Source: Antedon mediterranea (lineage: Eukaryota; Animalia; Echinodermata). Taken from it: a DNA stretch of 64,000 bases. Position numbers and translations under genes: made by a program. The notes under the pieces are model-generated. The model saw only the letters and a program-made list of their open reading frames with translations, did not search any database and was not told the DNA's origin. This document shows, in pieces, positions 17,550-63,728 of this stretch (position 1 is its first letter; every line of letters begins with the position of its first letter). The stretch lies in NCBI RefSeq assembly GCF_964355755.1, contig NC_092670.1, positions 22,616,795-22,680,794 of the forward strand, read 5' to 3'.

Positions 17550-20500
17550 TTAAAGAGTGACGTTGTATGAATCAACATATAATTGTCCAGGTACTTCATT
17601 GTTGCTCTGATGAATCCTTTCCGGGAAATGTTCCATGTCACAAAGCAAATTGAATATATTTGGATCGATATCATCTTTTAGATGGTTGACTGCTTCAATG
17701 TCATAATGTGTGTCCGTGAATTCAGATACGTATATAACGTCCATAATGCCTTCGGAACGCATTACCGCTTCATCTTCGTAATTATCTACCAGAGCAGCAT
17801 TGAGGGTCACATCGGATACAATATCCCAGTATTTCCGTGCAAGGTGGTTTTTGATTGGTGCGTATGGTGTACGAGTGTATTTTAATTCAGCGTCATAAGT
17901 TTTCTTGTCTACATCCAGGACAGGCTCAAAGTGTGCACATAAGTTTGATAGGTAGATGTTTCTTTCAGATACTAAATCACCAAACTGATTACTTATTGGT
18001 GCATATTTCAACCATTCATAATGTGGAAGCCCTTTCCTTCTTCCATATTTACTGTAAACATAAACATTCGTATTTGACATGGTCGCAAATGCCATGATTT
18101 CGATGTCCGAACCCCATGTCCCATATTCCCCCATTCTCGTGTCTTCCACGTATCGTTCAAATGATCTGGATTCAATTTTTTCAAATAGGTTTTTGTTCAT
18201 GGACATATAGTTTAGTATGTAATCCCGTACAACTACATGGTAGTTCTGGACACCAAAGAGAATATAACTCAAAGCCCTAAAAAGACAGTTGCCGTCCCCT
18301 CTCATATTAACAACTTTAGTAGGCCTGGCTGCCTTGTCCATTTCACATTTTAAGTGAGTTTTGTGAAAATTTTTGACATTGATACCAAATGGTGCTGCCT
18401 TTTCAAGCTGCCAATTGGCATCGACAGGAAAGAATAACTTTCTTGAAGTTTTCGTGTTGAGGTATACCACATCACTATCAGATACAGGCCTACTGTTGTC
18501 ATGGTCATCATCCGGTGCGACATTATCATTGTCTAATGTAGGTATGTTATCGAGATTATCCAGTGTGATATCATCGTTCTTGGATGTAGGTATGTTAATG
18601 TGATCATCCGGTGTGATATCATAATTCTTGGATGTAGGTCTGTTATCGTTATCATCAACATTCTTGGATGTAGGTATGTTAATAATGTGATCATCCGGTG
18701 TGATATCACCATTCTTGGATGTAGGTATGTTATCATGGTGCGTTACTTCAGGTGGGATGTCTGGCGTTCGCTTTCGTTTCTTTGGAGGGAGATGCTTATC
18801 ATTGGTATTACATTTCTGTTTAGTGCTTGATGATGGACAGTTCAAAGAGGTTGTTTTATCGGACTTGTAATGTCTGATCTTGTTTCCGTTAACAATAGCC
18901 CTTCTTCCTTTTAGTCGATATGTATTGTGAGTGAGGACTTTTTCTATAATATATGGACCAGTCCATCGAGCATTAAGTTTGCCTCCCTTTCTTGACAAAT
19001 TTCTGGAATTCTGCAAGAGCACTTGATCTCCTGCATAGTACGTGTTGCTTTTAACACCAGCATCATGATAATGTTTTTGCTTTTTCTGTGCTTTTTTGAT
19101 ATTTTCTGATGCCTTTCTCCTTGAATCTTTGAGTTTCAAAAAAGCGTCCACTCTTATTTTTAAAGGAACAGTTCCGGATATGTCATCTTTATTAGACGAA
19201 ACGATGGGAATACGTAATTCTACAGGCAACACAGCCTTTCTACCGTAAACTAATGAGAATGGGTCACATTTCGTAGACTTGTGCTCGGATGTTCTGTAGG
19301 CAAACAACACGTATGGGAGTTGTATATCCCAGTCATTTTGGTCTGCGTTGGTCAACGTCATAAGCATTGTGCAAAGTGTTCTGTTAAAGCGCTCCGTTTG
19401 CCCGCCTGTTTGAGGATGGTATGGTGAGGCAACTCTGTGGTCTACCCCAATCAGCTTACAGAAGCTGTCATTCAGCTCATTACAAAACTCTCTACCCTGG
19501 TCTGTAATCAATATAGAAGGTGTTCCATGTCTGCAGACAAAATCAATAAAAGATCTCAGCACTGTTTTAGCAGATTTATCTGGAATTGCATCAGCTTCCA
19601 CCCATTTGGTAAGGTACTCCGTAAATACAAGTAAGTACCGATTACCTGAAACACAGCAAATAATAATATAATAAGCCGTAATAATAGTAGTGTCAAAATG
19701 TCATGATGAGATGTACAACACCCGAACTGTACGAATGAAATAACAATAATAATAACAATATTAATATCAATAAATATAATAAGAACAAGAACAATAATAA
19801 TATCGTGGATTTACATAGCGCCTAATGTTGTAAAACCTCTATGCGCTGAACAGTATTACCCCAGTCATGGTTTGGATCAAATTAAAACAGGCAGAAATAA
19901 AGATTATTACAGTATAGCCATAATCGATGTAAATCCGGTGACAATAATAAGAGCATCTGATTCTTGGTAAATCTAGTTTTTGTTGACAGTGTAAAAAAGA
20001 GAACTGTCATAATTTTAGTTTAGTTAACAATTTCAAGAAACCTCACAGAAATTGCGCTTGTGCCTTTACAATAATAAATTTAAGTTCAGCTCTATTACAA
20101 TAAAGGCCGAACAGAACTAATTATTAACTGTAATTTTAGGCCCTGAAGAATGAATTACAAAGTTTTCTGAACGTATTTCATTCATGTCTTCTTGCTTTTT
20201 ACTTTTACGTTTTGATTTAGCTTTTTTATCCAGTCACAGCATTTTTGTTTTTCAGTAATTTGTCATGAGATACCTTACCATTTTCTGTCTTTACCAAAGG
20301 CCCAACAATATCCATACCGATCTGTCTGAAAGCAGTATCTGTTACGGGTATAGGTTGAAGTGGCACTTTTGCTTTTTTTAAAACTTCTTTCCGTTGGCAC
20401 TGATCACAGGCGGCTATAAAATTACGAACACCATCAAATGACCCCTTCCAATAATACCTTTCGCGTATCTTTTTCCAACTGTTAAAAAAAAAATGTGTTT

Positions 20501-46200: not shown

Positions 46201-46689
46201 AAAATAGATAAAACTAATATCACCACACCATAACTGTTAAAAATAATCTTTTATTTCAAACAAATTGAAGAAAATTTACAATAAGTATAAAATAATTTAT
46301 ATGTATTTATAAAAGCTTTCATTGGTTATTGCAAATTGTACCAAATTGTCAACATATAGTAGCCTTTTTATACTATACAGTAGTTTATTTCGTGATCAGT
46401 AATTTTACTTTACATTATATACATGTTAGTTTGTCAGTTGTAGATTCATTACACTTTTATTTTTTGATTTATTTATAGAAGATTCTTATTTTTTTAACAA
46501 TCATTAATATAATTGATAATTTAATCATTTGCCGCGTTTAGACAATAGTTATGAAAGAGCGAATGACTGCATTACTGACTGCCTAAAAATCCGGATCCTA
46601 TTATAATTGAAGAGATGAAACCATTCTATTGAACACCTAAAAACCAAAACAAACAAATTTTTGCAAATGAGCAAATTTATTTTATTTAT

Positions 46690-47790
46690 TTATTTTATTT
46701 TATTCAGTTAACAACCAACAGCAATGAAACCGCCACTAACAGGTTGAATCTAAATTACTGTATTAGCATTGGTAATCGTATAAAACAAAACGTATTTTCT
46801 TCTTCTGTTAAATGTAACTTTATTTTTAACATTACTTGAATACCGGTAGACATAGCATATTCAAATTCAGAACAATATTTATAATAATATATCTCACTTA
46901 AAAACAAGATTAAAATGTATTTACTCACCAGATATTGTTTCTCCTATACAGGAGAATGACATGGCTTGAAGTTACAGATTATTCACTGCCACTCGTGCAT
47001 AGATAATAAATCGATTATTTTTGCAAATGAGTAAATTACTGTATTAGTAATTTAATGTGGTCCTGGATATATAGAAAAAATAATATAAAAAACAATTATA
47101 CAACTGAAATTATGTATAGACCTAATGAAGTATTGGCAATCGTATAACACAAAACGTATTTTCTTCTTCTGTAAAATGTAACTTTTTATTTTTAACATTA
47201 CTTAAATACCGGTAGATATTGAAAGATTATTATTTGCACAGATTGCAACATTACATATTCAAATTCAAAACAACATTTATAATAATATAACTCACTTAAA
47301 AACAAGATTAAAATGTGTTTACTCACCAGATATTGTTTCTCATATACAGGAGAATGACATGGGTTGAAGTTACAGATTATTCGCTGCCTCTCTTGCATAG
47401 ATAATAAATTGATTATTCTTCTTGCAAATGAGTAAATTACTGTATTAGTAATTTCATGTAGACCTGGATAGATAAAAAAAAAATAATATAAAAAACAATT
47501 ATACAACTGAAATTATGTATAGACCTAATGAAGTATTGGTAATCGTCTAAAAAAAAACTTTCTTCTTCAGTAAAATGTAACTTTCATTTTTAACATTACT
47601 TGAATACCGGAAATATTGAAAGATTATTATGTGCACAGATTTACAACATTGCATATTCAAATTCTGAACAATATTTATAATAATATAACTCACATAAAAA
47701 CAAGATTAAGATTAAGATTTCGCCTATACAGGAGAATGAAATGGGTTGAAGTTACAGATTATTCGCTGCCCCTCGTACATAGAGAGTCAA
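46690..47790. repeat. Diverged tandem triplication (about 365-400-bp unit) downstream of the Helentron ORF
   Basis: ttcttcttc.gt.aaatgtaacttt...taccgg and tacaggagaatga.atgg.ttgaagttacagattattc each occur three times. Confidence 0.8.
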
Positions 47791-48110
47791 ATGATTTTCA
47801 GCTTGTTTTTATCAAATTGGTTTTTTTTTTCTTGATTTGTTTCCAGTTTTGTTTTCAATTCTTAAAAAGTTTTTATAGTATTCTGCTGGATGATTTTCCT
47901 GTTTATTATATATTAATATATTTTTGACGTTCTTGACCACGCTTGCACATAATTATAGTGATAGGCCTAATAGTATTTCATTTTGGTTTTTCAGTTTTTC
48001 TCCATTTCATAATGTAAGAATGTAATGAACAAGTTGAAATAATAATGCTATGCAAGTTCAGTTTCTATTTACTAAAATATAATTCAAATACTTAAAAACC
48101 ATTGATGCAA

Positions 48111-51100
48111 TTAAAATTTAATTTGAATGGCTTCATGATAGCTATAATAAATTGGAATTACTTCAGCCTGTACTGAATCAAGACCTTTGCTATAAACATG
48201 ATCAATCAATGTATTGTTTTCAGTTGTAGAACATGTAACATGTTGTTTGTACTCATTCTCTGCCATTAAATTATTCACTCTGGAAGATTGTTTGAAAAGA
48301 TTTTCATTAAAATCACCCATTACAATACATTTTGTGCTCATTTTATGTAACTCTTCCAAATGTTTTCTCAAATTTTGACAGAATTGATTAATATCATAAC
48401 TTGGGGGTCGATAAATTACTGACACGGCAACAGAAATCGGACTTGTTATTAAAAATGAAACTGCTTCAATATCATTATTACATATGTTTAATCTGCTTGA
48501 GGACGTATTCTTTGCATACACTGCAACTCCACCATGAGCCTGATGTTTTATTTTGGAACTGAGATCATTTGTATTAGAATACGAATCATACCTTGCTTGG
48601 TGATACAATTTATACGGCTCAATGCGTACGTCAAAAAAATCATCATCCTTGTTTAACCATGTTTCAGTTAGACATATGATATTAGAATTCATAAACAAAT
48701 CATTACACTGAAGATCAACAAAATGTTGTTTAAGCCCTTGAATGTTATGTAACATTATTGAAAATCTAGAAGCCGAATCATGACCTTGTTTATCACATTG
48801 TACGTATGAATCCATATTATTTAAGCACTTTTTTATGTTTGGATCACAATAAATCAGACTAGGTTTAAAATTTTCAATAGTAAGTCCAGTTATTGAAGTA
48901 ACACGACTGAGGCCTACATATGCTTGACCATGCGTAAAAGTATCTTTAAGGCAAACCACTGCTTTATCCATTGTCATTCCTTGCACTTTATGAACTGTGC
49001 ATGCATATGCTAATTTGAGAGGAAATTGTTTTCGACTGTATTTTTTCCCCATAGATTCTTTAAACATTTCAATTGCCTGAATACCAATGTCATTATTGTC
49101 AAATTTTACTTTAATAGATACTGGTTCGGTGTTATGATCAGGTTTGACTATTTCATCAACATGTCCCATACATCCATTCGTTAAGCCTTTTTTAACATCT
49201 ACATTTTTAATCAACATCACTCTGGCATTAATTGCAATCCACAAATAGTTTAGTAAACTAGTTTGACGTGAATTCCGAGGTTTGTCACAATTTTTGCTCT
49301 GTTTCTTGCTATTTACTACACTATCTTCTGCTTTAATGCATACAATGTCTGTACAGGTTTTGTGCAACATTTTTTTATTCCATTCATCAACTTGTTTGTT
49401 GCGTGGGTAAATATGAACAGCATCTTCACATTCTTCACCTGTTTCACGTGATTTTAGAACTAATAAATCGTTATCAGACAAACAATCATGTTTTTCTTTT
49501 GTACGCAATTTGTTTAACAATAAAGCAAATTGTTTATCTTCTTTTTGCCTCATGATTTGATCTAACTGTACTTGCTTAAAGTTATCTATCCACAGTGAGC
49601 TTTCCAATGTGTCTTTATATAACGAACTGCCCATCACCGGGGGTAACTGATAAAAATCACCAACAGCAATTACTGAAATGTAACCAAATGGACTATCGTT
49701 GCGTACTTGTTTTATTTGCCTTAATCGTCCGTGGATATACCAAAGTAACCTTTGATTTACCATTGATATTTCATCTATAATAACAATTTGCAACTGGCCC
49801 AATTTATTACGAAGTGCACTTATTTTTTCTTCTCCAAGTGGTTGATACGGAAGTGAAATATTAATCGGGATAGACAAAGCGCTATGAATTGTTTGGCCTT
49901 TAATATTATATGCTGCGATTCCTGTAGGAGCTAATTTCAATATTGACAAATCATCGGGATTTTCCATAATCTTTCCAAGAATACGTGTCGCTTCATTATA
50001 AATACAATTTACCAAATGACTTTTTCCTGTACCAGCGCCTCCAGTTATGAAAGTGTAAAATGCTTCAGGTTTGTTACCATTAACTTTGTCTAAACACCAT
50101 TGTCTGGTCTTATAAAATATATGTTGTTGTTTTTCATTTAAAGATCGAATCATTTTGTTCAATTCTGGTCTTGGAATATTAGATGAATTAGACTCTAATT
50201 TAGATGTAGGATTTTTTTGAATTCCAAAATCTGGAATGAAAAATTCATCTTCTTCATCATCAACCTCTACATTTGGCTTTGGGTTGTCTAACCTTTCTTT
50301 TTCGCTTTCTGGACATAATAGGCTCCATGCATCTTCTTGTGGTCCAAATTTTGATAAACATTCCTGTGCTTCTTCAACATCATCAGCACTTTTTTCATAT
50401 TGTTCCCTGTTTCCATGAACTATTGACTTTACCGTTTGTAATTGACAGCCACATAATTTCACACATCCTTTCTCATGAAATTGTTCATACGTTTCAAAAT
50501 TTGGAGGTTTTAACTGTTCATCTTTTCGAAATGGTAGAAATAACTGAAGTATACTCAAAAAATATTTCTCAGGTGCTGTATCCATTGGAAACCGTGGGTA
50601 TCTTACTATAGCATTACTAGTTCGTGTTCTTTTTTGGATGAATCCCAACTGTTTTTTTAACTGAAATACATTCTTTTTTTGTTTGTTTCCTTTCATTTCT
50701 GATGAACTCAATATTCTATATTCTGAACAAAATTTTGCAAGGCACATTTTATTAAATTCAGAACTATTAGGTCGAGCTTTATATTTGTCGATCTTATTTG
50801 GCAACCATGCACTTACATCATCATCTTCTTTGTTTTTAATTACACTTAGTGGTAAACTCATTCTGACAGGGTTAGGTCCTACTGGGATAAATTCAACTTT
50901 CCTTGAACATTCTTTTAATCTTAAACTACAAACACGATAAATACTTTCTTGTGCAGACACTTCTCGATTATTCATATAAACATTACCAAGTTTTCGCAAA
51001 CTTTGCCTAGCATCTTCATTGCCTTCTTTTACTTCTGATGCTGCATGATTTAACAGTAAACCCATTTCACGTTCAGATTTTGACATATATCCTATAACGT

Positions 51101-54100
51101 AAATTATACATGCATATACATTTGTAATATATTGAATATCCATATTAGCATTCCATGCTCTCAATAAGGAAGGATTATATTGATTTACCCACACATCTTG
51201 AGGGTTTCTCTTTATAACTATTTTTTCCTCAGTAGCTACACAATTATTTGCTTTCTCAAATGCACTCTGTGTAATACCTAAACTTTGGAAAAGTTCTATT
51301 GCATTTTTATATGTTTCTTCATTAGTCACAGCATCTTTTACTGAGGTTAACAGCTCCGTTGCTTTTTTATTGTCATCATTATCATCATTGTCTTTATCCA
51401 CAATTGTAGGTCTCATAACAAATGTATTTCCAGAAGGTTGTCTGGGAAAGTTAAATCTGCAATTTGTTCCCTTTTTTTTACATGATTTAGAATGTCTTTT
51501 ACTGTGAATTTGCACACTTTTAACAGTTTCATTCAGTTCACGATCTACAGTTTCACATGGCACAGCACAAGAAATATATTTATCAACAAAATTAATAACT
51601 TCATTATCTTTATCTGTACCAAAAATAGGAGCATTTTCAACCCATACTAACATATGAACATGTGGACTTCCTCTCATTTGAAATTCAATTCGGTAAAAAT
51701 AATCTACGACTTTACCAATAGGCTGTGCTTCAGACAAAATTACATTTTTCAAAAAAGTATGAAAGCGTTTGTCAAACATTCTTGCAACAGTCACCGGATT
51801 TGATTTCAACAAATTACATTTATCTGCCCATTCCAATTCTTCAATGTTTCTTTGGTCTCCTGACTGATTTAACAATGTCGTCATTATTTCTTTCCAACGG
51901 AAGTCAGCACTTGAGAATGAAAGAAAGAATGTTGGCTTTCCAATCTGTCTAACCATTGCTATTATATCTTTTTGTGTAGCTTGCCAGTACGGTGGAGTTC
52001 CACGAATTTGTTTTAAAAATTTATAACCCTTATCAGATTTTAAAATCTCCTGAATTTTGGTAACATTTTTTAAATCGGATACAGTAACTTTGCTAAAGTC
52101 ATCCTTTTTACTTGACCCTTTTCGCAATGCAATGGAAATACTAGATAAAATTTGTTGAAGTTCATATAAAGATTGAGCATAAAATATGAATTCTGTATTT
52201 TGTGCAAACCTGTTATCTATATGCATTAATCTATTGTGAAAATAACGTCCAAGTGTTATTTTAACATCTCTCGTATCATGGAATGTTGGTTGTCCTGTTG
52301 GAAATAACACTGGAAATGATTTTGCTTCATTGCTTTTATTACTTAATAATGCAATAGGGCTATTATTTTCACACGGTGCACAACAAATTATTTCATTAAA
52401 ATATTCATCAACCAAATTTTGTCGCATGTCAACAGGTTGGAGACTTGTATCAAAGGTAGCACCACACAATTGGTCTTCTACTTCTACCTCTTCTTCTTCA
52501 ATGTTTTCTACACATGTTTGATTTTCATGTACATTAGTATTTGCATTTTCGATGTTTTCTTCAGATAAATAATTATGCCATTCTTCATTAATAGCTATGT
52601 CAAAATAGCACTTGTTGTGATCTTGTAAATATCTAAGAGCTTGAATAACATTGGCAGTGTTAACAAATTTATATTTGTAATAACCTTTGTAAGATAACTT
52701 TCGCTTCAATTTTACAGATATTAATTGATCATCAACCTGTGGTCTAGGCAGCATTTTTACAGTTTCAATAGTATTTGATGGTACACATACGACTGGTCCA
52801 TGTATTCCATTCTGTCCACCTTTCGGTAAATTCATTAATTTCATAAAAGGAATGTTTAATCCAATCAAATGCTGCTCTAAATTATTTAAACACCTGAGCT
52901 CAGGAGGAATATCGTGTAGTTGTAAATTGTTTGAATTGGCTTCTGCAGGAACTTTCCCGTTTAACATTTTCCTGTGGCATGTGAAACAATTCCATAAACG
53001 ACATCTTGGTGATTCGACAAATTGACAAGGTTTATTACATTCATTATTGCAAAGATGCAAATACTTTTCATTTATACAAGCCTTATTTTTGTATTTAGCT
53101 TTGATGCACTTCATAACTTGATCTTTGAATAACAATTTAAAGCATACACAACAAACATATTCAGGACCACGAGAAACTGTTTCCCTGAAGTTTTCTAAAA
53201 CAATATTAAAATTAGTGTTTTCTGTTTTGATTTTTTCCCGATTTTTCATATTTTTCTTAATGATTTTTTTCCGGAACCCTTCATCACCATGATACTTTTC
53301 TGTAAATCTTTGCTTACATCTTTGACGAAATTTTGAATTCCCTCGATATTTCTCTGCCAATTTATGCTTACAGTTTTGTCTAAATTTCAAATTACTCCGA
53401 TACTTTTCTGCCAATTTGTCTTTGCATTTTTGCCTAAATTTCAAATTACTCCGATACTTTTCTGCCAATTTGTCTTTGCATTTTGTTCTAAATTTTAAAT
53501 TACTCCGATACTTTTCTACCAATTTATCTTTCCATTTTTGTTTAAATTTCAAATTAGTCCGATACTTTTCAACAAATTTTTCTTTACAGTTTTGTCTAAA
53601 TTTAAAATTACTTTGATACTTCTCTGTCAATTTTTGGGTAATGTTTTCTCTGAATTGTGAATTACTACAATACTTCTGTGTTAAATTTTGTTTCAAATTT
53701 TTTCGAAATTGTGGATCATTGTGATATCTTTCCTTATTTCTTTGTTTATTATTTTGCCTAGTTTTATGTCTAAACATTGTTTCATTGTTGTATCTATTCT
53801 TCATTGTTTCTTTTTTGGTTGTTCGGTAATCCAAATCAATGTTGTAGTTATTTTTAGCTTTATTTCGTACCTTAACATTATATTCAGGTTCACATCTATA
53901 CTTTTTGTGTTGTCTTTCTCTGTTTTCTTTCCTTTTTTGGAATTTATAATCATCATCACCATATCTTATTTTTTGCGCCTCTTTTACTTTGCGTTTCTTT
54001 TCCTCTCTGTATACAGAATCACTTTCATATTTGTTTCCGGTTTCTTTTATTTCTTCTGAATTATTTTTTTTTTCTCTTTCCCGTTTAATTTTCTGTCGAT

Positions 54101-57100
54101 TCTTTTCTATTTCTTTTCTAATTCTATAAGATTGTTTTCGTTTTCCGCTCAATATTTTTACTTTGCTTTCTGAACAAGGTTTTTCATCAGTTTTACTCTT
54201 TTTGTGTTTTGGTTCTTTGTCTTCAAATGTGTCACAAGTTTCTTTTCCAGTTTGCTTTCGTTTCTTTGTTGTAGAATTCTTTACCAAAAAAATCGCCTCT
54301 GTATTTGACAGTTTATTGTGGGATGTCACATTCATATCAACTTGTCCTGTTGTTTCCTGAACATTATTTTGACTCACATTGACAGATTCTACTACATTAA
54401 AATGCACATTCATGGTGTACAAAATATATATACCATTGTCAGTTGTAACATCATCTATTCTTCCCGGCTTTTTAGCAGAAAACAATTGCCACGTCAAAAG
54501 TTGATCATTAAATGAATAAATATCTGTATTAAGCAAGTTTGCCATTGCACTTATTTCAGTATTGGATGCCCACGTTCCATTATCCATTACTCTTTTTTTA
54601 AACACATATTCCTTAACTGATCTATATTCGTGACTAAATGTATTAATAAATAAGTCATCAGTTTCCAATAAATGATTAGTAATTGCTCTTCTTAAAAATA
54701 AATGATTATCTTCAGTCCCAGAAATAATGTATGAAATTGCACGATAAAAACAATTACCATCACCTGTAATATTTGTAATTTGAAGAGGATGTCCAATCTG
54801 ACTAGCTCTGTTAATACCACAATTCATATCGGTATGTTCACAATGAATGCCTAATTTATTACACATGTTTTTCTTTTGTGCTTCTGAGGTAGGAATAAAT
54901 TTAAAATTCTCGTCAGGTCTTTCTGCATACTGAACATTAACAATTTCAATATCACTATCACTTTGCCATCCATTACTTGATGAGACATGACCTTCTTTAT
55001 TATGTTTTTTGCCTTTAACGTTAGAATCAATATTCTTGTCTGGTAATCTTGTACTACATTTATACTGATAAGAGGTACTAGGTTCATCAACGTCGACGTT
55101 TCCCAAGTTTCTTTGTTCACAATTATCATCGAGCACAGAAGCGGAACATAACATCATAGACTTATTTTCAATATTTACACCAGTCAGTTCAAACTCGGTT
55201 TCATGTAAATTACAGTTCATTGACCTTGCTAATCTTATACAATAATCGTACACACCTTGCCACGATGGACTGTAAAGTAAAATACTCTTTCCATGTTCAC
55301 TAACACAACCAAATCGATCTCTTGCATGTGGATCAAATATAAGAAATCCATTTACACGTTTGATAATAGAAAATGTGCTTCTGTTGAAATTCATAAAAAA
55401 TGCATCATGTTGGTGTAATTCTTGTTCAAGAGCTTGGTTTAATGACAAGGCTCCATATTCAGCCATAAATTCGAGATTCCCATCTATTATGCCAAAAACT
55501 GATTCTTTGGGAGATATTACAAATGTGTTATCCAAGATATCCAATTCTTTCGGCAGTTCAGAAATCATTAAAAGGTCCTCGTGCATAGTGGAATCTTTCT
55601 GAATGTAACGGTACAACTCGTTTCCAAGAGTCAATATTGTATCAAGGTCTTTGGTGTAAAATTCATTTCCATTCCTCTTTGTAGAATAAAGAATAGCTAC
55701 AAGACTATTTGCAACACACTGTTTACCACTTGCAAAGCCAAATCTATAATTCCCTTGATTAAAATTACCCTGTGCTACAGTTATATTTTCATTACTATTA
55801 TATACTTGTAATTCATTTATTGATTGTGTTTTCTGCCTTTTTCGTGTATTTTTTTGTTTTGGTACATCATCGATTATCAATTCTTCCGAAAAATTACTTT
55901 TTGTTAAAACTTCAATATCCACATCGATAGTATGTTGGTCACATTTAGGTTTAGTATGGGACCTAATTTTTTCAGTCACTGCTTTTTTGAATCCGTCATC
56001 AATTATCAATACTTCATTTTCCTCAAATTCACAACTTGCACATGTTTGATTTTTATGATCTGTACCATTACTATCAATTATTCTACTTCTGTCATTCATT
56101 TTGCTATTATTTTGTGCTTTCGCATCGTCAGTCGCTGTGTTGTCGTTTTCTACAGTACATTCCATTTTAAAATCCTCGTCAGTTTTCGTTTCAGAATTGT
56201 CATTATTACCCATGTTCTTTATATCTTTCATAGTATCGCAATCATTCTTTAAATTCACATTACCTTGTGCTTTTTTGTTATCAATCCTCTTAGTTTTGAC
56301 AAAACGACCCTTGTTATTTCGTAAACGTTTCGAACCACCACCTGATTGTTGTTGTATTCCGTGCGTTACTTTTGTATTTTTCAAATCATCACACATAGGC
56401 CTACCACTGTCGTCAATTATTGTTTGTGAATTTCCCAATATATTCGTTTTACCATTTTCTTTGTTGTATTCTCTGTAAGTAGTTGTATTCATATTCCATT
56501 CCATTTTTTTATTATTTTGTCTTTCATAGAAATCTTTTACACCTTTGCCAATATATTTTACACCTGGTTCTATACTTATACCATTTATAACGCGCTTTCT
56601 CCTTTTCTTATTTCCTCTATTTTTACATCTTTTTTTTCTGTTGTCGGTTCTTTTCTTTGATCTTACTCTGATCCAATCACTACCAAGTAAATCTTCACTT
56701 TCTGTTTGTTGACATTTTAATATTGCATTATTATAACGTTTTTCTTTATTTTTCGTTAATTCTGGAAAGTCTGAAGTGACAGATTCATCAGGTTCTAGAA
56801 TCGTATATCTATTGAAATGACAGGGAATACCTATTTCGCCAAACATGTTATCAACAAAATTATTATTCCCACACATTGAACAAATCCAAATTACCCGGGA
56901 ATTACATAGTTTGTCTTCAAAAACATCTCTTACACATTTCACATGAAAATATTGACTACAACAGTCACATGTTATGCAATTGTCGTCTACTTTCACTTCA
57001 ATATTACAGAAATCGCATGTATCATCAAACTCTGAAGTGACATCTGTACCATAAGATAATATGTTTATGATATCATCAATTATTCCTTTAAATTCTGTTG

Positions 57101-57383
57101 TATCTTTCATAAATTCACAATTGACATTACCTGTATCATCATTTCTGTCGTCTTTGACATTCTCAGTTGAACAGCATTCATCAAGTAGGTCCAAGATGTC
57201 ATTAACAACTATTTTAAATTCTGCTGTCTTATCCATAACTCCATTATTAACATTACCAGTTGTATTGACAAAAATATGCTTTTTACTTGTAACTTCTTTA
57301 TTCACATTCTTACACAAATAAATTATCATTGTAAAGATAATCAACAAAAAGATACCAACTAATGTTATGAATTCCATATCCAT
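48111..57383 (-). CDS. Helentron Rep/helicase/endonuclease polyprotein, 3090 aa, with N-terminal hydrophobic anchor, PHD finger, herpes-tegument-like DUB and OTU domains
   Basis: Uninterrupted ORF. Rep: FFLSFSSAD, YRIEFQMRGSPHVHMLVW, YVIGYMSK. PIF1: GGAGTGKS, IIDEISMV, GDFYQLPPV, QFPLKLAYACTVHKVQG, GQAYVGLSRV. EEP: HNIQGL, LTETW, GDFN, IDHVY, SYH. OTU: GDGNCFYRAIS...HF. C76-like: NQGNYRFGFASGKQCVANS...FDPH. PHD: C4HC3. Confidence 0.93.
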   Translation of the reverse strand: MDMEFITLVGIFLLIIFTMIIYLCKNVNKEVTSKKHIFVNTTGNVNNGVMDKTAEFKIVVNDILDLLDECCSTENVKDDRNDDTGNVNCEFMKDTTEFKGIIDDIINILSYGTDVTSEFDDTCDFCNIEVKVDDNCITCDCCSQYFHVKCVRDVFEDKLCNSRVIWICSMCGNNNFVDNMFGEIGIPCHFNRYTILEPDESVTSDFPELTKNKEKRYNNAILKCQQTESEDLLGSDWIRVRSKKRTDNRKKRCKNRGNKKRRKRVINGISIEPGVKYIGKGVKDFYERQNNKKMEWNMNTTTYREYNKENGKTNILGNSQTIIDDSGRPMCDDLKNTKVTHGIQQQSGGGSKRLRNNKGRFVKTKRIDNKKAQGNVNLKNDCDTMKDIKNMGNNDNSETKTDEDFKMECTVENDNTATDDAKAQNNSKMNDRSRIIDSNGTDHKNQTCASCEFEENEVLIIDDGFKKAVTEKIRSHTKPKCDQHTIDVDIEVLTKSNFSEELIIDDVPKQKNTRKRQKTQSINELQVYNSNENITVAQGNFNQGNYRFGFASGKQCVANSLVAILYSTKRNGNEFYTKDLDTILTLGNELYRYIQKDSTMHEDLLMISELPKELDILDNTFVISPKESVFGIIDGNLEFMAEYGALSLNQALEQELHQHDAFFMNFNRSTFSIIKRVNGFLIFDPHARDRFGCVSEHGKSILLYSPSWQGVYDYCIRLARSMNCNLHETEFELTGVNIENKSMMLCSASVLDDNCEQRNLGNVDVDEPSTSYQYKCSTRLPDKNIDSNVKGKKHNKEGHVSSSNGWQSDSDIEIVNVQYAERPDENFKFIPTSEAQKKNMCNKLGIHCEHTDMNCGINRASQIGHPLQITNITGDGNCFYRAISYIISGTEDNHLFLRRAITNHLLETDDLFINTFSHEYRSVKEYVFKKRVMDNGTWASNTEISAMANLLNTDIYSFNDQLLTWQLFSAKKPGRIDDVTTDNGIYILYTMNVHFNVVESVNVSQNNVQETTGQVDMNVTSHNKLSNTEAIFLVKNSTTKKRKQTGKETCDTFEDKEPKHKKSKTDEKPCSESKVKILSGKRKQSYRIRKEIEKNRQKIKREREKKNNSEEIKETGNKYESDSVYREEKKRKVKEAQKIRYGDDDYKFQKRKENRERQHKKYRCEPEYNVKVRNKAKNNYNIDLDYRTTKKETMKNRYNNETMFRHKTRQNNKQRNKERYHNDPQFRKNLKQNLTQKYCSNSQFRENITQKLTEKYQSNFKFRQNCKEKFVEKYRTNLKFKQKWKDKLVEKYRSNLKFRTKCKDKLAEKYRSNLKFRQKCKDKLAEKYRSNLKFRQNCKHKLAEKYRGNSKFRQRCKQRFTEKYHGDEGFRKKIIKKNMKNREKIKTENTNFNIVLENFRETVSRGPEYVCCVCFKLLFKDQVMKCIKAKYKNKACINEKYLHLCNNECNKPCQFVESPRCRLWNCFTCHRKMLNGKVPAEANSNNLQLHDIPPELRCLNNLEQHLIGLNIPFMKLMNLPKGGQNGIHGPVVCVPSNTIETVKMLPRPQVDDQLISVKLKRKLSYKGYYKYKFVNTANVIQALRYLQDHNKCYFDIAINEEWHNYLSEENIENANTNVHENQTCVENIEEEEVEVEDQLCGATFDTSLQPVDMRQNLVDEYFNEIICCAPCENNSPIALLSNKSNEAKSFPVLFPTGQPTFHDTRDVKITLGRYFHNRLMHIDNRFAQNTEFIFYAQSLYELQQILSSISIALRKGSSKKDDFSKVTVSDLKNVTKIQEILKSDKGYKFLKQIRGTPPYWQATQKDIIAMVRQIGKPTFFLSFSSADFRWKEIMTTLLNQSGDQRNIEELEWADKCNLLKSNPVTVARMFDKRFHTFLKNVILSEAQPIGKVVDYFYRIEFQMRGSPHVHMLVWVENAPIFGTDKDNEVINFVDKYISCAVPCETVDRELNETVKSVQIHSKRHSKSCKKKGTNCRFNFPRQPSGNTFVMRPTIVDKDNDDNDDNKKATELLTSVKDAVTNEETYKNAIELFQSLGITQSAFEKANNCVATEEKIVIKRNPQDVWVNQYNPSLLRAWNANMDIQYITNVYACIIYVIGYMSKSEREMGLLLNHAASEVKEGNEDARQSLRKLGNVYMNNREVSAQESIYRVCSLRLKECSRKVEFIPVGPNPVRMSLPLSVIKNKEDDDVSAWLPNKIDKYKARPNSSEFNKMCLAKFCSEYRILSSSEMKGNKQKKNVFQLKKQLGFIQKRTRTSNAIVRYPRFPMDTAPEKYFLSILQLFLPFRKDEQLKPPNFETYEQFHEKGCVKLCGCQLQTVKSIVHGNREQYEKSADDVEEAQECLSKFGPQEDAWSLLCPESEKERLDNPKPNVEVDDEEDEFFIPDFGIQKNPTSKLESNSSNIPRPELNKMIRSLNEKQQHIFYKTRQWCLDKVNGNKPEAFYTFITGGAGTGKSHLVNCIYNEATRILGKIMENPDDLSILKLAPTGIAAYNIKGQTIHSALSIPINISLPYQPLGEEKISALRNKLGQLQIVIIDEISMVNQRLLWYIHGRLRQIKQVRNDSPFGYISVIAVGDFYQLPPVMGSSLYKDTLESSLWIDNFKQVQLDQIMRQKEDKQFALLLNKLRTKEKHDCLSDNDLLVLKSRETGEECEDAVHIYPRNKQVDEWNKKMLHKTCTDIVCIKAEDSVVNSKKQSKNCDKPRNSRQTSLLNYLWIAINARVMLIKNVDVKKGLTNGCMGHVDEIVKPDHNTEPVSIKVKFDNNDIGIQAIEMFKESMGKKYSRKQFPLKLAYACTVHKVQGMTMDKAVVCLKDTFTHGQAYVGLSRVTSITGLTIENFKPSLIYCDPNIKKCLNNMDSYVQCDKQGHDSASRFSIMLHNIQGLKQHFVDLQCNDLFMNSNIICLTETWLNKDDDFFDVRIEPYKLYHQARYDSYSNTNDLSSKIKHQAHGGVAVYAKNTSSSRLNICNNDIEAVSFLITSPISVAVSVIYRPPSYDINQFCQNLRKHLEELHKMSTKCIVMGDFNENLFKQSSRVNNLMAENEYKQHVTCSTTENNTLIDHVYSKGLDSVQAEVIPIYYSYHEAIQIKF

Positions 57384-57919
57384 TATTCAAAATTTGTATA
57401 AGAAACAAATCTACAAATTTCTTCAAATTAATAAACTTTGTATTCTGCAATTCCAATGAATATTACAATTAGGTTCTTTTTATCAATTCAAGAAATTCTT
57501 GCTAAAACAAAATAAATTATTAAAATTCCAAAAACAATTCAATTTTATATTGTCTTTTGTTTCTATGATTTTTAATTTTTGTCCTAATTTTTTTTCTTTT
57601 AATATATTTTTTTTTTATCTGCTTTTTTTTCAATAGTTCAATTATACAATTTCACTGAATAAAAAAATTAGCTTCTGCTTAATATTGGCTTGATGAAATA
57701 CTCTATATTATTTTTAACTTCTCTTTAATACTTGGTTATGCTAAATAGTTTCAGATTCTAATTTTTATTCTTTTTACAATTCTACTTAATAACAGATTCA
57801 AATAAAAGTGATCTTTAAATCTTCTTTAATTAATTCTTTTGTAATAAACTCTGTTTAATATTTATTTCTTTATAATAAGCTTCTGTTTTATTCTTCAAAC
57901 TTTTGTTTATATAATCAAA

Positions 57920-58200
57920 CTTTAACTTTACACTTTTGCTTTTGCAAAAATGGTTTTGTAATAAACTTTTGTTTATTAGTTGTTTCCTTGTGATTAACTT
58001 CTGTTATCTTCAAGGTTTGACACTTTTGCTTTTGCAAAAATGGTTTTGTAATAAACTTTTGTTTATTAGTTGTTTCCTTGTGATTAACTTTTGTTATCTT
58101 CAAGGTTTTACACTTTTGCTTTTGCAAAAATGGTTTGTAATAAACTTTTGTTTATTAGTTTTTTCCTTGTGATAAACTTCTGTTTACTTCAAGGTTTTAC
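57920..58200. repeat. Tandem repeat of about 90 bp, 3 copies
   Basis: cacttttgcttttgcaaaaatggttt at 57930, 58021 and 58111. Confidence 0.9.
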
Positions 58201-59024
58201 TGAATGTTTCAAAGATACTTTTAAAAAATGTTTAAAAAGAAATTGTGCATAAATATTAAAATTCGGTAACCCCTCGTAGAAACTCTCTTTGGAGAGTGGA
58301 TCTTTTTCTAAAGACCCGGATCTCTTCTGAGATCCAGTGGGTTTATATAAGACAGTCACCTACAATAAAAGAAAAAAAAAAGAGTTAGTTATTAATTTTA
58401 AGATACACTGTACAGTACTAAGAATTTGTAAAAACACTGATTTATCTACTGATTCAATTTATAATATACACATCCCCCTTGTGGAATGTAACATGATCTA
58501 TTGGGCCTAGCAAAACAAATTAGGACCAACTCACTACTAAATTCAGGATAGACCCATTTTATAAAATTGCAAGTTTGTGTCTGGAGAAACTGACCACCAC
58601 ATTTATGTTAAAAAGGATGATTGTCCCAAATTTTGAAGTAAATTATGATAATATATTTGTGACTTTGGTTTATACAATATAAATAAATCACTATAGAAGA
58701 TATTTTGACCTAAAAATATGTCAAAACTTCATTACATGGAATGTGTCGGAAACAAATTCTTTCATAACAATTTCACCTTCACAATTTTTCAACTTCTACG
58801 AAATCAACTTGTATTTTTGTTGCTTTTAATCAAACACTTGTATCAAATGATAATTCACATAAATTGTTATATTGTAATATTCAATAAAGTCCTAGTATAA
58901 ACATATAATCTGAAAATAGGTTTAATTATTCAATGTTCTAATATAACAGAATTTTATACACAAAAATATTTGGTCACTCAGTATTGTAAATTTACAGACA
59001 ACACATGTTTATCAATTAAGGGAG

Positions 59025-61512
59025 GGCATAAAGTAAGGAAAATATGTTTTTTCCGTTTTACAAATAATTTTCTAATACTCACAGCTGTAACTGATACTGT
59101 ATATTTTCTGTACAACTACAATCTAAAATATAAAAGGAAAATCATTAATAATTGCAATAAACAACATTAACACTTTTTCAAAATCAACATGCTTCTTAAT
59201 CGAAAAAGTAAGAAATTTCCTCAAAATGACTTTAGGTATGGGCCGGTTGATTGGGGTATACATGTTGTCTTAATACTAATTTCATTTAATAATTTATTCA
59301 CAAACAATAAAATCTGAATTATGTAAATGTTTCATAATAGAAAATGCCTACAAAATGACAGGCAACTGTTCACGAAGTAAGGAAAATATGTTTTCTCCAT
59401 TTAACAGTTAATCTACTAATACTCACAGCTGTAGCTAACACTGTATATTTTCTACAATCTAAAAAAAACAAGGAAAACATTGATAATGGCAATAAACAAC
59501 ATTAACCCTTTTGCTAAATCAACATGCTTCTTAATCAATGTCTGAAAAATTAGGAAATTTCCTCAAAATGACTTTGGGTATGGGCCGGCTGATTGGGGTC
59601 TACATGTTGTCTCAATACTACTTTCATTTAATATCTCATTCACAAACCATAAAATCTGAATTATTTAAATGTTTCATAATATAAAATGCCTACAAAATAA
59701 CAGGCAACAGTTCACAAAGTAAGGAAAATATGTTTTCTCTGTTTAACAGATAATCTACTAATACTCACAGCTGTAGCTCAAACTGTTTATTTTCTACAAT
59801 CTAAAAAAAAAACAAGGAAAAACATTGATAATGGCAATAAACAACATTAACACTTTTTCCAAATCAACATGCTTCTTAATCAATGTCTGAAAAATGTAGG
59901 AAATTTCCTCAAAATGGCTTTGGATATGGGCCGGCTGATTGTGGCCTACATGTTGTCTCAATGGTAATTTCATTTAATTGTTTGATTACAAACAATAAAA
60001 TCTGAATTATGTAAATGTTTCATAATACAAAATGTCTACAAAATAACCGGCAATAGTTCACAAAGTAAGAAAAATATGTTTTCTCCGTTTAACAGATAAT
60101 CTACTAATACTCACAGCTGTAGCTCAAACTGTATATTTTCTACAATCTAAAAAAATACAAGGAAAAACATTGATAATTGTAATAAACAACATTAACACTT
60201 TTTCCAAATCAACACGCTTCTTAATCAATGTCTGAAAAATTAAGAAATTTCCTCAAAATGACTTTGGGTATGAGACGGCTGATTAGGGCAGGCAACAGTT
60301 CACAAAGTAAGGAAAATATGTTTTCTCCGTTTAACAGATAATCTACTGATACTCACAGCTGTAGCTCAAACTGTATATTTTCTACAATCTAAAAAAAAAC
60401 AAGGAAAAACATTGATAATGGTAATAAACAACATTAACACTTTTTCCAAATCAACACGCTTCTTAATCAATGTCTGAAAAATTAAGAAATTTCCTCAAAA
60501 TGACTTTGGGTATGAGACGGCTGATTAGGGCAGGCAACAGTTCACAAAGTAAGGAAAATATGTTTTCTCCGTTTAACAGATAATCTACTGATACTCACAG
60601 CTGTAGCTGAAACTGTATATTTTCTACAATCTAAAAAAAAAACAAGGAAAAACATTGATAATGGTAATAAACAACATTAACACTTTTTCCAAATCAACAA
60701 GCTTCTTAATCAATGTCTGAAAAATTAAGAAATTTCCTCAAAATAACTTTGGGTATGGGCCGGCTGATTGGGGTCTACATGTTGTCTCAATACTACTTTC
60801 ATTTAATATCTTATTCACAAACAATAAAATCTGAATTATGTAAATGTTTCATAATACAAAATGTCTACAAAATAACAGGCAACAGTTCACAAAGTAAGAA
60901 AAATATGTTTTCTCCGTTTAACAGATAATCTACTAATACTCACAGCTGTAGCTCAAACTGTATATTTTCTACAATCTAAAAAAAAAACAAGGAAAAACAT
61001 TGATAATGGTAATAAACAACATTAACACTTTTTCCAAATCAACAAGCTTCCTATTCAATGTCTGAAAAATTAAGAAATTTCCTCAAAATGACTTTGGGTA
61101 TGAGACGGCTGATTAGGGCAGGCAACATTTCACAAAGTAAGGAAAATATGTTTTCTCCGTTTAACAGATAATCTACTGATACTCACAGTTTTAGCTGAAA
61201 CTCTATATTTTCTACAATCTAAAAAAAAACAAGGAAAAACATTGATAATTGTAATAAACATTAACACTTTTTCCAAATCAACACGCTTCTTAATCAATGT
61301 CTGAAAAATTAAGAAATTTCCTCAAAATGTCTTTGGGTATGAAACGGCTGATTAGGGCAGGCAACAGTTCACAAAGTAAGGAAAATATGTTTTCTCTGTT
61401 TAACAGATAATCTACTAATACTCACAGCTGTAGCTCAAACTGTATATTTTCTACAATCTAAAAAAAACAAGGAAAAACATTGATAATGGCAATAAACAAC
61501 ATTAACATTTTT
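59025..61512. repeat. Satellite with long (about 345 bp) and short (about 243 bp) unit variants, plus an orphan copy at about 62355-62670
   Basis: The tactcacag anchor occurs at about 59075, 59420, 59762, 60107, 60350, 60592, 60937, 61180, 61419 and 62361. Confidence 0.92.
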
Positions 61513-63477
61513 TTCATGAGTATATGTAAAACTATAATTTTTAATAGTTTGGAAAATATTATAATTGTCAAGAAGGTGCATGGTTCTTAAATTTAAAAAT
61601 AAATGTTGTTTTTCGGTAACAATCCGACAAAATCATTAATAAATGTTGGCCCCTCTCTAATATTTCTATGTTGATTAATTCAATTTTTTTAAACTATATA
61701 CTATATATTTTGATTATTGATTTTAAAGCATATTGAAATAAATTTTAATGTAAAAATGCTGGTTTAGCTTACTGTAATAACACTGGTCACAGACTGACAT
61801 GTCAGTCTGTGACTAACTCGGTAACAACCAGACACTTTTTAATATCATATAAAAATGTAAAAATAAGGTTTTAAAAAAAAGTAACCTTATGAGTGTATGT
61901 AAAGCTATAATTTTTAATAGTTTGGAAAATATTATAATTGTCTAGAAGGTACATGGTTCTTAAATTAAAAAAATGTTTTTTGGTAACAACCCGACAAAAT
62001 TATTAATAATTATGTTGGCCCCTCCTTAATATTTCTATGTTGATTAATTCAATTTTTTTAAACAAAATCTCAAACAATATATTTAGTTCTTTAATTCTAA
62101 AAAGAAATGACATGTATAAATTAGGATTTAGTTGTCTGTTATAGGATTTAAGTAAACCTCATATTGTTTTATTTTTTAAGTTTTCTAAATATCATTATTT
62201 TAAATGGAAATATGTCTGTATATATCTCATTTTTTTTTTACCACTTAAATATCCTGAAAGTATATAACATTAGCTTTAGTTTGATATCAAACATGTTAAG
62301 ACTGCTAAAAGTTAAAAATTTTCAAAATCCAAAAAAAAAATTGTGGAATTGCCCTACTAATACTCACAGCTGTAGCTGAAACTGTAAATCTTCTGTTAAT
62401 AAAAAACAATTACAATCTAAAAAATACAAGGAAAAACATTGATAATGGCAATAAACAACATTAACACTTTTTCCAAATCAACAAACTTCTTAATCAATGT
62501 CTGAAAAATTAGGAAATTTTCTTAAAATGACTTTGGCTATGGGCCAGCTAATTGGGGCCGACATGTTGTCTCAATGGTAATTTCATTTAATAGTTTGATC
62601 ACAAACAATAAAATTTGAATTATGTAAATGTTTCATAATAGTATAAATGCCTACAAAATAACAGGCAACACTTCACTCCCAATCATGAGAACATAAATCA
62701 TCTCTACAAATTATTTATTTTATGTTCACTATTTACGATATTCTAGAGATTATGAAGTACTGTAGAAACAATAATGTTATTACTGTACATGTATCTCTTC
62801 CAACTCTTTAGGAACTGATACAACTAAAAACTAGGCCTAGCCCCTAGCTAGGAGGCCTAGGCTAGTAGTAGGCATAGAAGAGAACTTCGCAAAAAGCAGA
62901 CTCAGCTTGCTAACAATGCTAAGTAGAGTAGGCTATATTATACCGGTATTTAATTTTAAGGCATGGTATTCAAGATAAAGTTTGTTAACAAATTAGGAAT
63001 TAATATACGCCGTGGTTAGGATTCCGGCACCGGAACTCAACTGCCCAGCGTTAGGGAATCCGACACGCTATTGCGCATGCCCAGAGCGAATTAATTATAG
63101 CTTTGCACTTTACCGCGCACCACACCACCGAGAGAGTCGGAGTGTTATTATAGGAATTTACTGTAGCCTCCTATTGCCTATAGTTAGTCGTTGCGCGAGC
63201 GAGAGAGCGATGGATGAAACTTGGCCTAGCCTAGGCCATATGAATTAATAATTAAAATACCACTACGCCACGCGTTAAAATAATTATTATGATATTGCTA
63301 AGAATCAGCCTATCTATCAAAGAATCGTAATGCTGTAATTTTATTAGACAAAGTGAATAGCGTAGCGACCCCGACTTCCCAAACGGTTCTGTTTTTTTCA
63401 CATCATATCCGCGCGGCGGCTGCCGTCAACAAATCAACTTATACGCATGGAGGGTACCTCCATGGTATACGTGTTAT

Positions 63478-63728
63478 GCGCGATTTGAACGATTTGCGCA
63501 ATTTAAAATTGCGCAAAAAAATCCTTGCGCAATTTGAAATTGCGCAAAGAATTCTTGCGCAATTTAAAATTGCGCAAGGATTTTTTTGCGCAATTTCAAA
63601 TTGCGCAATCAACTTGCGCAATTTCAAATTGCGCAAGAAAATCTTTGCGCAATTTTAAATTGCGCTGCACAATTTGTAAATTGCGCAAGATAGTTCTTGC
63701 GCAATATGACACCTTTGCGCAATTTGAA
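63478..63728. repeat. Array of nested palindromes (ttgcgcaatttnaaattgcgcaa)
   Basis: More than a dozen TGCGCAA/TTGCGCA cores, spaced about 15 bp apart. Confidence 0.9.

What the first reader, a model, noticed from the sequence alone, without database searches (positions are those of the whole stretch)
54380..55790. Helentron carries two different deubiquitinase folds in tandem, one of herpesvirus tegument type
Upstream of the OTU is QGNFNQGNYRFGFASGKQCVANSL...LDTILTLGNELY...FLIFDPHAR. This reproduces the Gln/Cys and Asp-Pro-His catalytic signature of herpesvirus large-tegument DUB/deneddylases (UL36/UL48/BPLF1, peptidase C76). Two apparently intact ubiquitin-like proteases fused to a rolling-circle transposase suggest an anti-host-defence module or polyprotein self-processing, and gene flow between Helentrons and large DNA viruses (inference).
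Basis: partly seen in the sequence, partly recalled or inferred. Interest (0 to 1): 0.85.

Follow-up and report, generated by a model that had tools for sequence, protein, structure and literature searches.

The report
Known two-deubiquitinase Helentron transposon
An intact rolling-circle transposon, likely from a feather star, carries two predicted ubiquitin-removing enzymes (one herpesvirus-like, one OTU) fused ahead of its transposase, an arrangement already described and partly tested in fish transposons, so this is an ordinary new member.

Summary
One unbroken 3,089-aa ORF (48111-57380, minus strand) encodes a Helentron polyprotein: leader, VTD (herpes tegument-like deubiquitinase), OTU, DUF6570, Rep, PIF1 helicase, AP endonuclease. 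The VTD passes Pfam Herpes_teg_N and folds like the zebrafish Helitron VTD 8ADD (Z 28.9) and cytomegalovirus M48 (Z 22.9). Its triad (C557, D685, H687) is intact, as in 69 of 70 full-length relatives. The OTU (C879/H995) is intact too. Erven et al. 2022 named this family, counted 121 Helitrons with VTD plus OTU, and showed deubiquitinase activity for zebrafish copies. VTD+OTU occurs in 50 of the 120 closest RepHel relatives. The VTD tree follows the helicase tree, so capture is ancient; viral identity is only 12-19%. Likely role: removing ubiquitin to protect the transposition proteins (untested). One extra: a Q-x-x-x-GGG motif is kept in the fast-changing leader of 12 of 12 close relatives, a candidate self-cleavage site. 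It is absent beyond chance from 46 other leaders, and 30 of 34 elements lack GG between the proteases and DUF6570.

The parts
48111..57380 (-). Single uninterrupted Helentron polyprotein ORF, 3,089 aa from the first ATG (aa numbers in this report count from the upstream stop, so that ATG is aa 3)
57315..57371 (-). Hydrophobic N-terminal segment aa 6-24, predicted signal anchor or membrane helix; found only in Antedon-type leaders
   Evidence: Kyte-Doolittle mean 2.82; 6 of 59 leaders score 2.0 or more, all Antedon-type. Whether this ATG is used is untested
56871..57017 (-). PHD-like C4HC3 finger aa 124-172
   Evidence: Cys/His invariant in 8 of 8 aligned leaders; Pfam PHD E 0.0049, 17.3 bits, below the cut-off of 24; Atlas leads at 0.79-0.80 only
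56289..56357 (-). Conserved block aa 344-366: QQQSGGG, a basic run, then KGRF; candidate di-glycine cleavage site (G349-G350) or nucleic-acid-binding motif
   Evidence: 8 of the 12 invariant columns of the 254-aa linker fall in this block; present in 12 of 12 close relatives with a leader
55161..55781 (-). VTD (viral tegument-like deubiquitinase; Pfam Herpes_teg_N, peptidase C76 type), aa about 536-742: Q544, C557, E610, D685-P-H687
54387..54902 (-). OTU domain with a conserved N-terminal extension, aa about 829-1000: D876, C879, H995, N997
53291..53675 (-). In-frame 54-bp (18-aa) basic tandem repeats between OTU and DUF6570
52578..52961 (-). DUF6570, a marker of the HLE2/Helentron group
   Evidence: Pfam E 6.8e-20; PMC11417382 passages
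51645..52241 (-). HUH Rep domain with Helentron signatures F-Y-R and R-G-S-P-H-x-H
   Evidence: Pfam E 4.8e-37
48897..50141 (-). PIF1 helicase
   Evidence: Pfam E 1e-28; motifs located
48114..48746 (-). C-terminal AP-type endonuclease
   Evidence: Pfam E 8.3e-9
59030..61498 (.). Tandem arrays (units of about 240-340 bp) upstream of the ORF, probably inside the element; ends of the element not resolved
   Evidence: contigs of other runs cover the region
46856..47709 (.). 398-bp tandem duplication downstream of the ORF, probably inside the element

Best explanation
This is an intact Helentron (HLE2) whose single polyprotein carries a VTD and an OTU domain with complete catalytic residues ahead of Rep, helicase and endonuclease, and the two domains likely act as tethered deubiquitinases that would strip K48/K63 ubiquitin (possibly NEDD8) from the transposase or nearby host proteins so that transposition is not cut short. 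Shown here: architecture, folds, intact and conserved active sites, long co-inheritance with the helicase. Shown by others on zebrafish homologues: Ub-PA reactivity and K48/K63 cleavage by the VTD. Inferred: activity of this copy, activity of any Helitron OTU, and the substrates.
For: Folds: VTD model to 8ADD E 3.7e-15, TM 0.82, Z 28.9, rmsd 1.8 over 203 residues; to M48 2J7Q Z 22.9, rmsd 2.9 over 199. OTU model to OTUD5/OTUD3 E about 3e-8. Residue mapping to 8ADD puts C557/D685/H687 on C322/D451/H453, each essential in DrT1-VTD2, and E610 on E377, needed for binding the ubiquitin tail (PMC9741609). Triad intact in 17 of 17 close domains, 99 of 109 covered domains in the wider set and 69 of 70 full-length elements. 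OTU Cys/His intact in 115 of 121 covered domains. Both domains are better conserved than their linkers: VTD 49-86% and OTU 45-82% against 10-63% in five diverged elements. 32 of 37 well-supported VTD splits recur in the helicase tree. No GG lies between the last protease and DUF6570 in 30 of 34 elements, consistent with the DUBs staying attached. The paper proposes the same role.
Against: No activity was measured for this copy. DrT2-VTD, the tested VTD from a VTD+OTU element, was much weaker than the others. D376 of DrT1-VTD2 is Ser (S609) here, and D376A reduced activity there, though this site varies across the family. Transposon OTUs were untested as of that paper. 38 of the 120 closest RepHel proteins show neither domain; many are short gene models, so dispensability is unclear. 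The substrate is unknown.
Confidence: 0.6

Rival explanations
1. Besides deubiquitination, the VTD or OTU cuts the polyprotein at the di-glycine at G349-G350. This would free VTD-OTU-Rep-Hel-EN, with a new basic (NLS-like) start, from a membrane-anchored PHD leader.
For: Q-[QE]-[LQ]-x-G-G-G is kept in 12 of 12 close relatives that have a leader, with Leu at P4 in 7 of 12. The block holds 8 of 12 invariant columns of an indel-rich 254-aa linker. A sea-urchin relative has a GG followed by a similar basic motif. DrT1-VTD2 cleaves the peptide substrate RLRGG-AMC, and viral DUBs process polyproteins at di-Gly sites. A hydrophobic N-terminus is kept at only 42% identity in two subfamilies.
Against: Not family-wide: in 46 other leaders GG occurs in 12 (15.8 expected from shuffles) and LxGG in 0 (1.8 expected). 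The 12 carriers are one clade, so not independent. This copy has Gln, not Leu, at P4, and lacks the Arg residues that E377 binds in ubiquitin. Four carriers (P0009, P0012, P0013, P0019) show no hydrophobic N-terminus in their gene models. GGG plus basic residues plus KGRF could equally be a nucleic-acid-binding motif.
Confidence: 0.12
2. The domains act mainly in trans as a counter-defence: deubiquitinating or deneddylating host factors (cullin ligases, chromatin silencing, DNA-damage signalling at the insertion site) rather than protecting the transposase.
For: Zebrafish DrT1 VTDs cleave NEDD8-AMC better than BPLF1, and herpes VTDs target cullins and signalling (PMC9741609). A PHD-like finger in the leader could aim it at chromatin. 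Unrelated transposons carry OTU or Ulp1 domains (PMC2836005; one lies in this window).
Against: DrT2-VTD (VTD+OTU type) had negligible NEDD8 activity. No host target is known for any Helitron DUB in what I read. Not exclusive of the best explanation.
Confidence: 0.25
3. The domains are neutral captured cargo, or a recent gain from a large DNA virus.
For: Helitrons capture gene fragments (PMC11417382). 23 of the top 26 viral structure hits are named herpesvirus proteins.
Against: Catalytic residues are kept in 69 of 70 elements from echinoderms, molluscs, a hemichordate, hagfish and teleosts. VTD and helicase distances correlate (Spearman 0.65; maximum 0.15 in 500 permutations). Viral identity is 12-19%, against 40-99% to other Helentron VTDs. 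The nearest solved structure is the Helitron one.
Confidence: 0.03

Closest known systems
Zebrafish Helitron/Helentron DrT2 (VTD + OTU) and DrT1 (two VTDs; PDB 8ADD), Erven et al. 2022, PMC9741609
   Same: VTD plus OTU in the ORF of an endonuclease-bearing Helentron; same fold (Z 28.9), same Cys...Asp-x-His triad and conserved E377 equivalent.
   Different: Host is probably a crinoid (the paper lists vertebrates, insects, cnidarians, molluscs; 'echinoderm' 0 hits in its main text). About 17-18% structural identity to 8ADD. D376 is Ser here. The leader with hydrophobic helix, PHD-like finger and GGG block is not discussed there ('PHD' 0 hits).
HLE2 subgroup b of HELIANO (Li et al. 2024, PMC11417382)
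   Same: Herpes_teg_N and DUF6570 in the RepHel ORF, with endonuclease; OTU upstream of RepHel.
   Different: That survey treats OTU as mostly in a separate ORF; here, as in many relatives, OTU is in the same ORF.
Herpesvirus large tegument DUBs (M48, BPLF1, UL36; Pfam PF04843, peptidase C76)
   Same: Fold (2J7Q Z 22.9), triad arrangement, and profile match (BPLF1 chain E 5.8e-10).
   Different: 12-19% identity; fused to a transposase, not to a capsid-binding tegument protein.
Ginger1 transposons with C-terminal OTU or Ulp1 (Bao et al. 2010, PMC2836005)
   Same: A ubiquitin-like protease fused to a transposase; a related OTU (32% identity) sits on such an ORF in this window.
   Different: DDE integrase, one protease only, C-terminal, no VTD.

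Membership tests
VTD / peptidase C76 deubiquitinases | Profile match to Herpes_teg_N above the curated cut-off | tested here: met
   40.3 bits against 25, E 3.4e-10
VTD / peptidase C76 deubiquitinases | M48-like papain fold | tested here: met
   Predicted model: 8ADD Z 28.9, 2J7Q Z 22.9; best non-VTD AvrPphB Z 13.1
VTD / peptidase C76 deubiquitinases | Catalytic Cys with Asp-x-His | tested here: met
   C557, D685, H687 align with C322, D451, H453 of 8ADD; conserved in 69 of 70
VTD / peptidase C76 deubiquitinases | Cleaves ubiquitin or NEDD8 | not testable with these tools
   Shown only for homologues (PMC9741609)
OTU deubiquitinases | OTU profile and fold with D-x-x-C and H-x-N/D/E | tested here: met
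   Pfam 39.1 bits against 23.3; Foldseek OTUD5/OTUD3; D876, C879, H995, N997
OTU deubiquitinases | Cleaves ubiquitin chains | not testable with these tools
   Needs biochemistry
Helentron (HLE2) | Rep + PIF1 helicase with C-terminal AP endonuclease in one ORF | tested here: met
Helentron (HLE2) | Rep signatures F/Y-x-R and G-S-P before HxH; DUF6570 | tested here: met
Helentron (HLE2) | Subterminal inverted repeats, 3' stem-loop, insertion in TT | tested here: inconclusive
   No clear pair found; one 12-bp, 1-mismatch candidate (46607/62698) among 6 such matches, not above chance; contig ends did not mark the termini
Self-processing polyprotein (viral PLpro-like, di-Gly sites) | Conserved di-Gly sites at domain boundaries across the family | tested here: inconclusive
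   One site conserved in one clade (12 of 12); not enriched in 46 other leaders; none between protease and DUF6570 in 30 of 34

The most novel reading that the evidence does not exclude
In this echinoderm Helentron clade the transposase is made as a membrane-tethered precursor, and its own VTD or OTU cuts the conserved Q-x-x-x-GG/G site to release a nucleus-bound DUB-RepHel-endonuclease: a virus-style self-processing switch in a rolling-circle transposon.
Probability: 0.12. Interest if true: 0.6.

Novelty: new member of a known kind. Interest (0 to 1): 0.2.

Why it matters
The core finding adds an intact, probably echinoderm example to a family described, solved and assayed in 2022, so by itself it matters little. 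What stays open in the field is what Helentron DUBs are for, and whether the OTU is active. An unbroken, multi-copy element with both domains is a handy test case. If the di-glycine site proved to be self-cleaved, it would show protease-controlled maturation of a Helitron transposase; my searches of the open library found no such report.

Tried and rejected
Element ends: exact and 1-mismatch inverted-repeat searches, hairpin folding and two read layings gave no clear termini; no whole genome is held. Expression: no RNA holder listed (one run is only guessed RNA), so nothing is concluded. Viral relatives: none in IMG/VR by close-pattern search (the search finds close relatives only). Metagenome scan gave 2 weak 25-36-residue matches, not pursued. 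Leader homologues among shorter proteins: 0 of 1,377 candidates. Family-wide di-Gly enrichment: none (GG 21 of 69 against 24.4; LxGG 7 of 69 against 2.2, but 6 of the 7 from one clade). The leader motif INGxxxEPGV was considered as a 2A ribosome-skip site and rejected: it lacks the D-x-E-x-N-P-G-P core (recalled motif). An LPxGGQ inside DUF6570 (26 of 34) lies within a conserved domain and is probably structural; not tested further. A complex model of the VTD with the di-Gly segment was not obtained, so fit to the active site is untested. Earlier scan findings: none. Literature searches with no hits. A tree including viral VTDs was not built, as no viral sequence was held.

Full report
Observation. 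The finding lies in the longest ORF of the window, 48111-57386 on the minus strand, 3,091 codons without a stop. Pfam gives, in order: Herpes_teg_N aa 543-690 (33.6 bits in the whole protein, 40.3 alone, cut-off 25), OTU aa 875-957 (38.3 and 39.1, cut-off 23.3), DUF6570, Helitron_like_N, PIF1 and Exo_endo_phos. The Rep carries F-Y-R and R-G-S-P-H-V-H, which Thomas et al. give as Helentron signatures (PMC4067079, passages).

Host and family. The closest named relatives are Antedon mediterranea gene models: four at 96-97% over the VTD-OTU region, three at 78-79%, two at 42-45% (17 hits among 3,048 candidates). The host is therefore probably Antedon or a near crinoid (inference). Near-identical copies on four contigs of different length suggest a recently active multi-copy family (inference). 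Of 711 RepHel relatives, the best 120 were listed. My own HMMs find VTD and OTU together in 50 of these 120, VTD alone in 22, OTU alone in 10 and neither in 38, many of the last being short gene models. By the source names, carriers of both include sea urchin, acorn worm, abalone, limpet, mussel, oyster, hagfish and many teleosts.

Folds. The VTD model (pLDDT 94.9; its alignment held one OTU-only row by mistake) matches the zebrafish Helitron VTD 8ADD best (E 3.7e-15, TM 0.82; Z 28.9, rmsd 1.8, 203 residues). Next come cytomegalovirus M48 2J7Q (Z 22.9), the Waddlia VTD (Z 17.6) and AvrPphB (Z 13.1). A profile of the alignment reaches 8ADD at 1.7e-26 and herpesvirus large tegument chains at 5.8e-10 to 1e-4. 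Among predicted viral structures, the top 26 hits have 12-19% identity; 23 are named herpesvirus proteins and 3 are unnamed. The OTU model (pLDDT 91.5) matches OTUD5, OTUD3, OTUD1 and nairovirus OTUs.

Active sites. The alignment to 8ADD, numbered against the paper, places C557, D685 and H687 on C322, D451 and H453, each essential in DrT1-VTD2. It places E610 on E377, which binds the ubiquitin tail; D376 is Ser here. Q544 is invariant; its role as oxyanion residue is recalled, not tested. The triad is intact in 17 of 17 close domains. It is also intact in 99 of the 109 domains, out of 154 aligned, that cover all three columns, and in 69 of 70 full-length elements, the exception being a gap. 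OTU Cys and His are intact in 115 of the 121 covering domains, out of 145. Against five diverged elements the VTD keeps 49-86% identity and the OTU 45-82%, while the flanking linkers keep 10-63%. That is protein-level evidence of purifying selection; dN/dS could not be computed.

Origin. Across 70 elements (one VTD each, those with near-complete VTD and helicase), VTD and helicase tree distances correlate (Spearman 0.65; 0 of 500 permutations reach it, maximum 0.15). 32 of 37 VTD splits with FastTree support of 0.9 or more recur in the helicase tree. The VTD has been inherited with the element for a long time. No viral sequence was in the tree, so the direction of the ancient exchange is untested here.

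What is known. Erven et al. 2022 (PMC9741609; I read parts 1, 2, 3, 5 and 6 of 9 of the text, keyword passages and supplement passages) defined the VTD family. They found most non-viral members in endonuclease-bearing Helentrons and counted 121 with an OTU as well. They showed Ub-PA reactivity and K48/K63 preference for three zebrafish domains, one from a VTD+OTU element, and solved 8ADD. They propose that Helitron VTDs prevent proteasomal degradation of transposition proteins and that herpesviruses probably took the domain from a Helitron; they note that transposon OTUs were untested. HELIANO (PMC11417382, passages) independently lists Herpes_teg_N in the RepHel ORF of HLE2 subgroup b. So both the pairing and the virus link are in print.

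Mechanism. Most likely the two domains are tethered deubiquitinases that keep the large transposase, or factors at the transposition site, free of degradative ubiquitin (0.6). Action on host defence or cullin ligases in trans is the main rival (0.25) and is not exclusive. Architecture and conservation are shown; activity is carried over from homologues; substrates are inferred.

Self-processing. I looked for di-glycine sites, since viral DUBs cut polyproteins there and DrT1-VTD2 cleaves RLRGG-AMC. Between the last protease and DUF6570 there is none in 30 of 34 elements (three of these have almost no linker), so release of RepHel from the proteases is unlikely. Upstream of the VTD, however, a block Q-[QE]-[LQ]-x-GGG, basic run, GRF/GCF is present in 12 of 12 close relatives that have a leader; 7 of 12 have Leu at P4, while this copy and its four near-identical relatives have Gln. 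It holds 8 of the 12 invariant columns of an indel-rich 254-aa linker in an 8-sequence alignment. A sea-urchin relative has a weaker version. The leader also has a PHD-like finger (sub-threshold Pfam) and, in 6 of 59 leaders, all Antedon-type, a hydrophobic N-terminal helix. Against it: in 46 other leaders GG appears in 12 (15.8 expected) and LxGG in 0 (1.8 expected) (two Diadema models whose leader is a cut VTD were left out; many gene models may be truncated). The carriers are one clade, four of them lack the hydrophobic helix, and the block could be a nucleic-acid-binding motif. No complex model was obtained. I put self-cleavage at 0.12. Searches for helitron + polyprotein + self-cleavage, helentron + ubiquitin + proteolytic processing, and VTD + deubiquitinase + helitron since 2023 returned 0 papers in the open library; subscription journals are not covered.

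Unresolved. The termini were not found; contig cover suggests the element runs from roughly 46,500 to 62,700, which is a guess. Expression and the true start codon are unknown.

Verdict. A correct reading of the sequence, and a new member of a known kind. Interest 0.2.

Noticed in passing
window 17550-19700 (-): 716-codon ORF with an integrase core and a C-terminal OTU (Pfam), like Ginger1 transposases (PMC2836005). Its OTU is 32% identical to the Helentron OTU, including the extension before the domain. The frame starts inside the integrase, so it is spliced or truncated.
   Followed up: partly
P0237 aa 103-220 and P0231 aa 136-254 (fish Helentrons): A GDSL/SGNH esterase in the leader ahead of VTD-OTU (Pfam E about 1e-6, below cut-off). 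With the PHD-like finger of the crinoid leader this recalls ORF1 of CR1/L2 retrotransposons (recalled), hinting that Helentron leaders came from LINE ORF1.
   Followed up: no
ranks 6 and 27-32: An unnamed 810-aa viral protein, Q06VS9, matches the VTD model as well as herpesvirus proteins (TM 0.79); from recall the accession may belong to an ascovirus, not verified. Tupanvirus, Indivirus, Catovirus and Yasminevirus proteins match more weakly (TM 0.36-0.55). A search for ascovirus + tegument + deubiquitinase gave 0 papers.
   Followed up: partly
P0002 aa 535-1503: An Antedon copy with the whole VTD-OTU module duplicated in tandem (VTD-OTU-VTD-OTU), both units 96-99% identical to this window's; real duplication or assembly error not checked.
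   Followed up: no
window 58318-58385 (-): Two adjacent hairpins (58318-58335 and next), a TATATAA box and a polypyrimidine tract ending in TAG/G: possible promoter or splice acceptor for an upstream exon. Contigs from three or more runs show a strand-switch joint at 58413-58465.
   Followed up: no
window 61786-61813: Perfect 28-bp palindrome between two copies of a roughly 360-bp repeat upstream of the element's tandem arrays.
   Followed up: no
window 63494-63709: Array of palindromic TTGCGCAA-containing units of 15-31 bp in a very high-depth repeat; probably a MITE or satellite.
   Followed up: no
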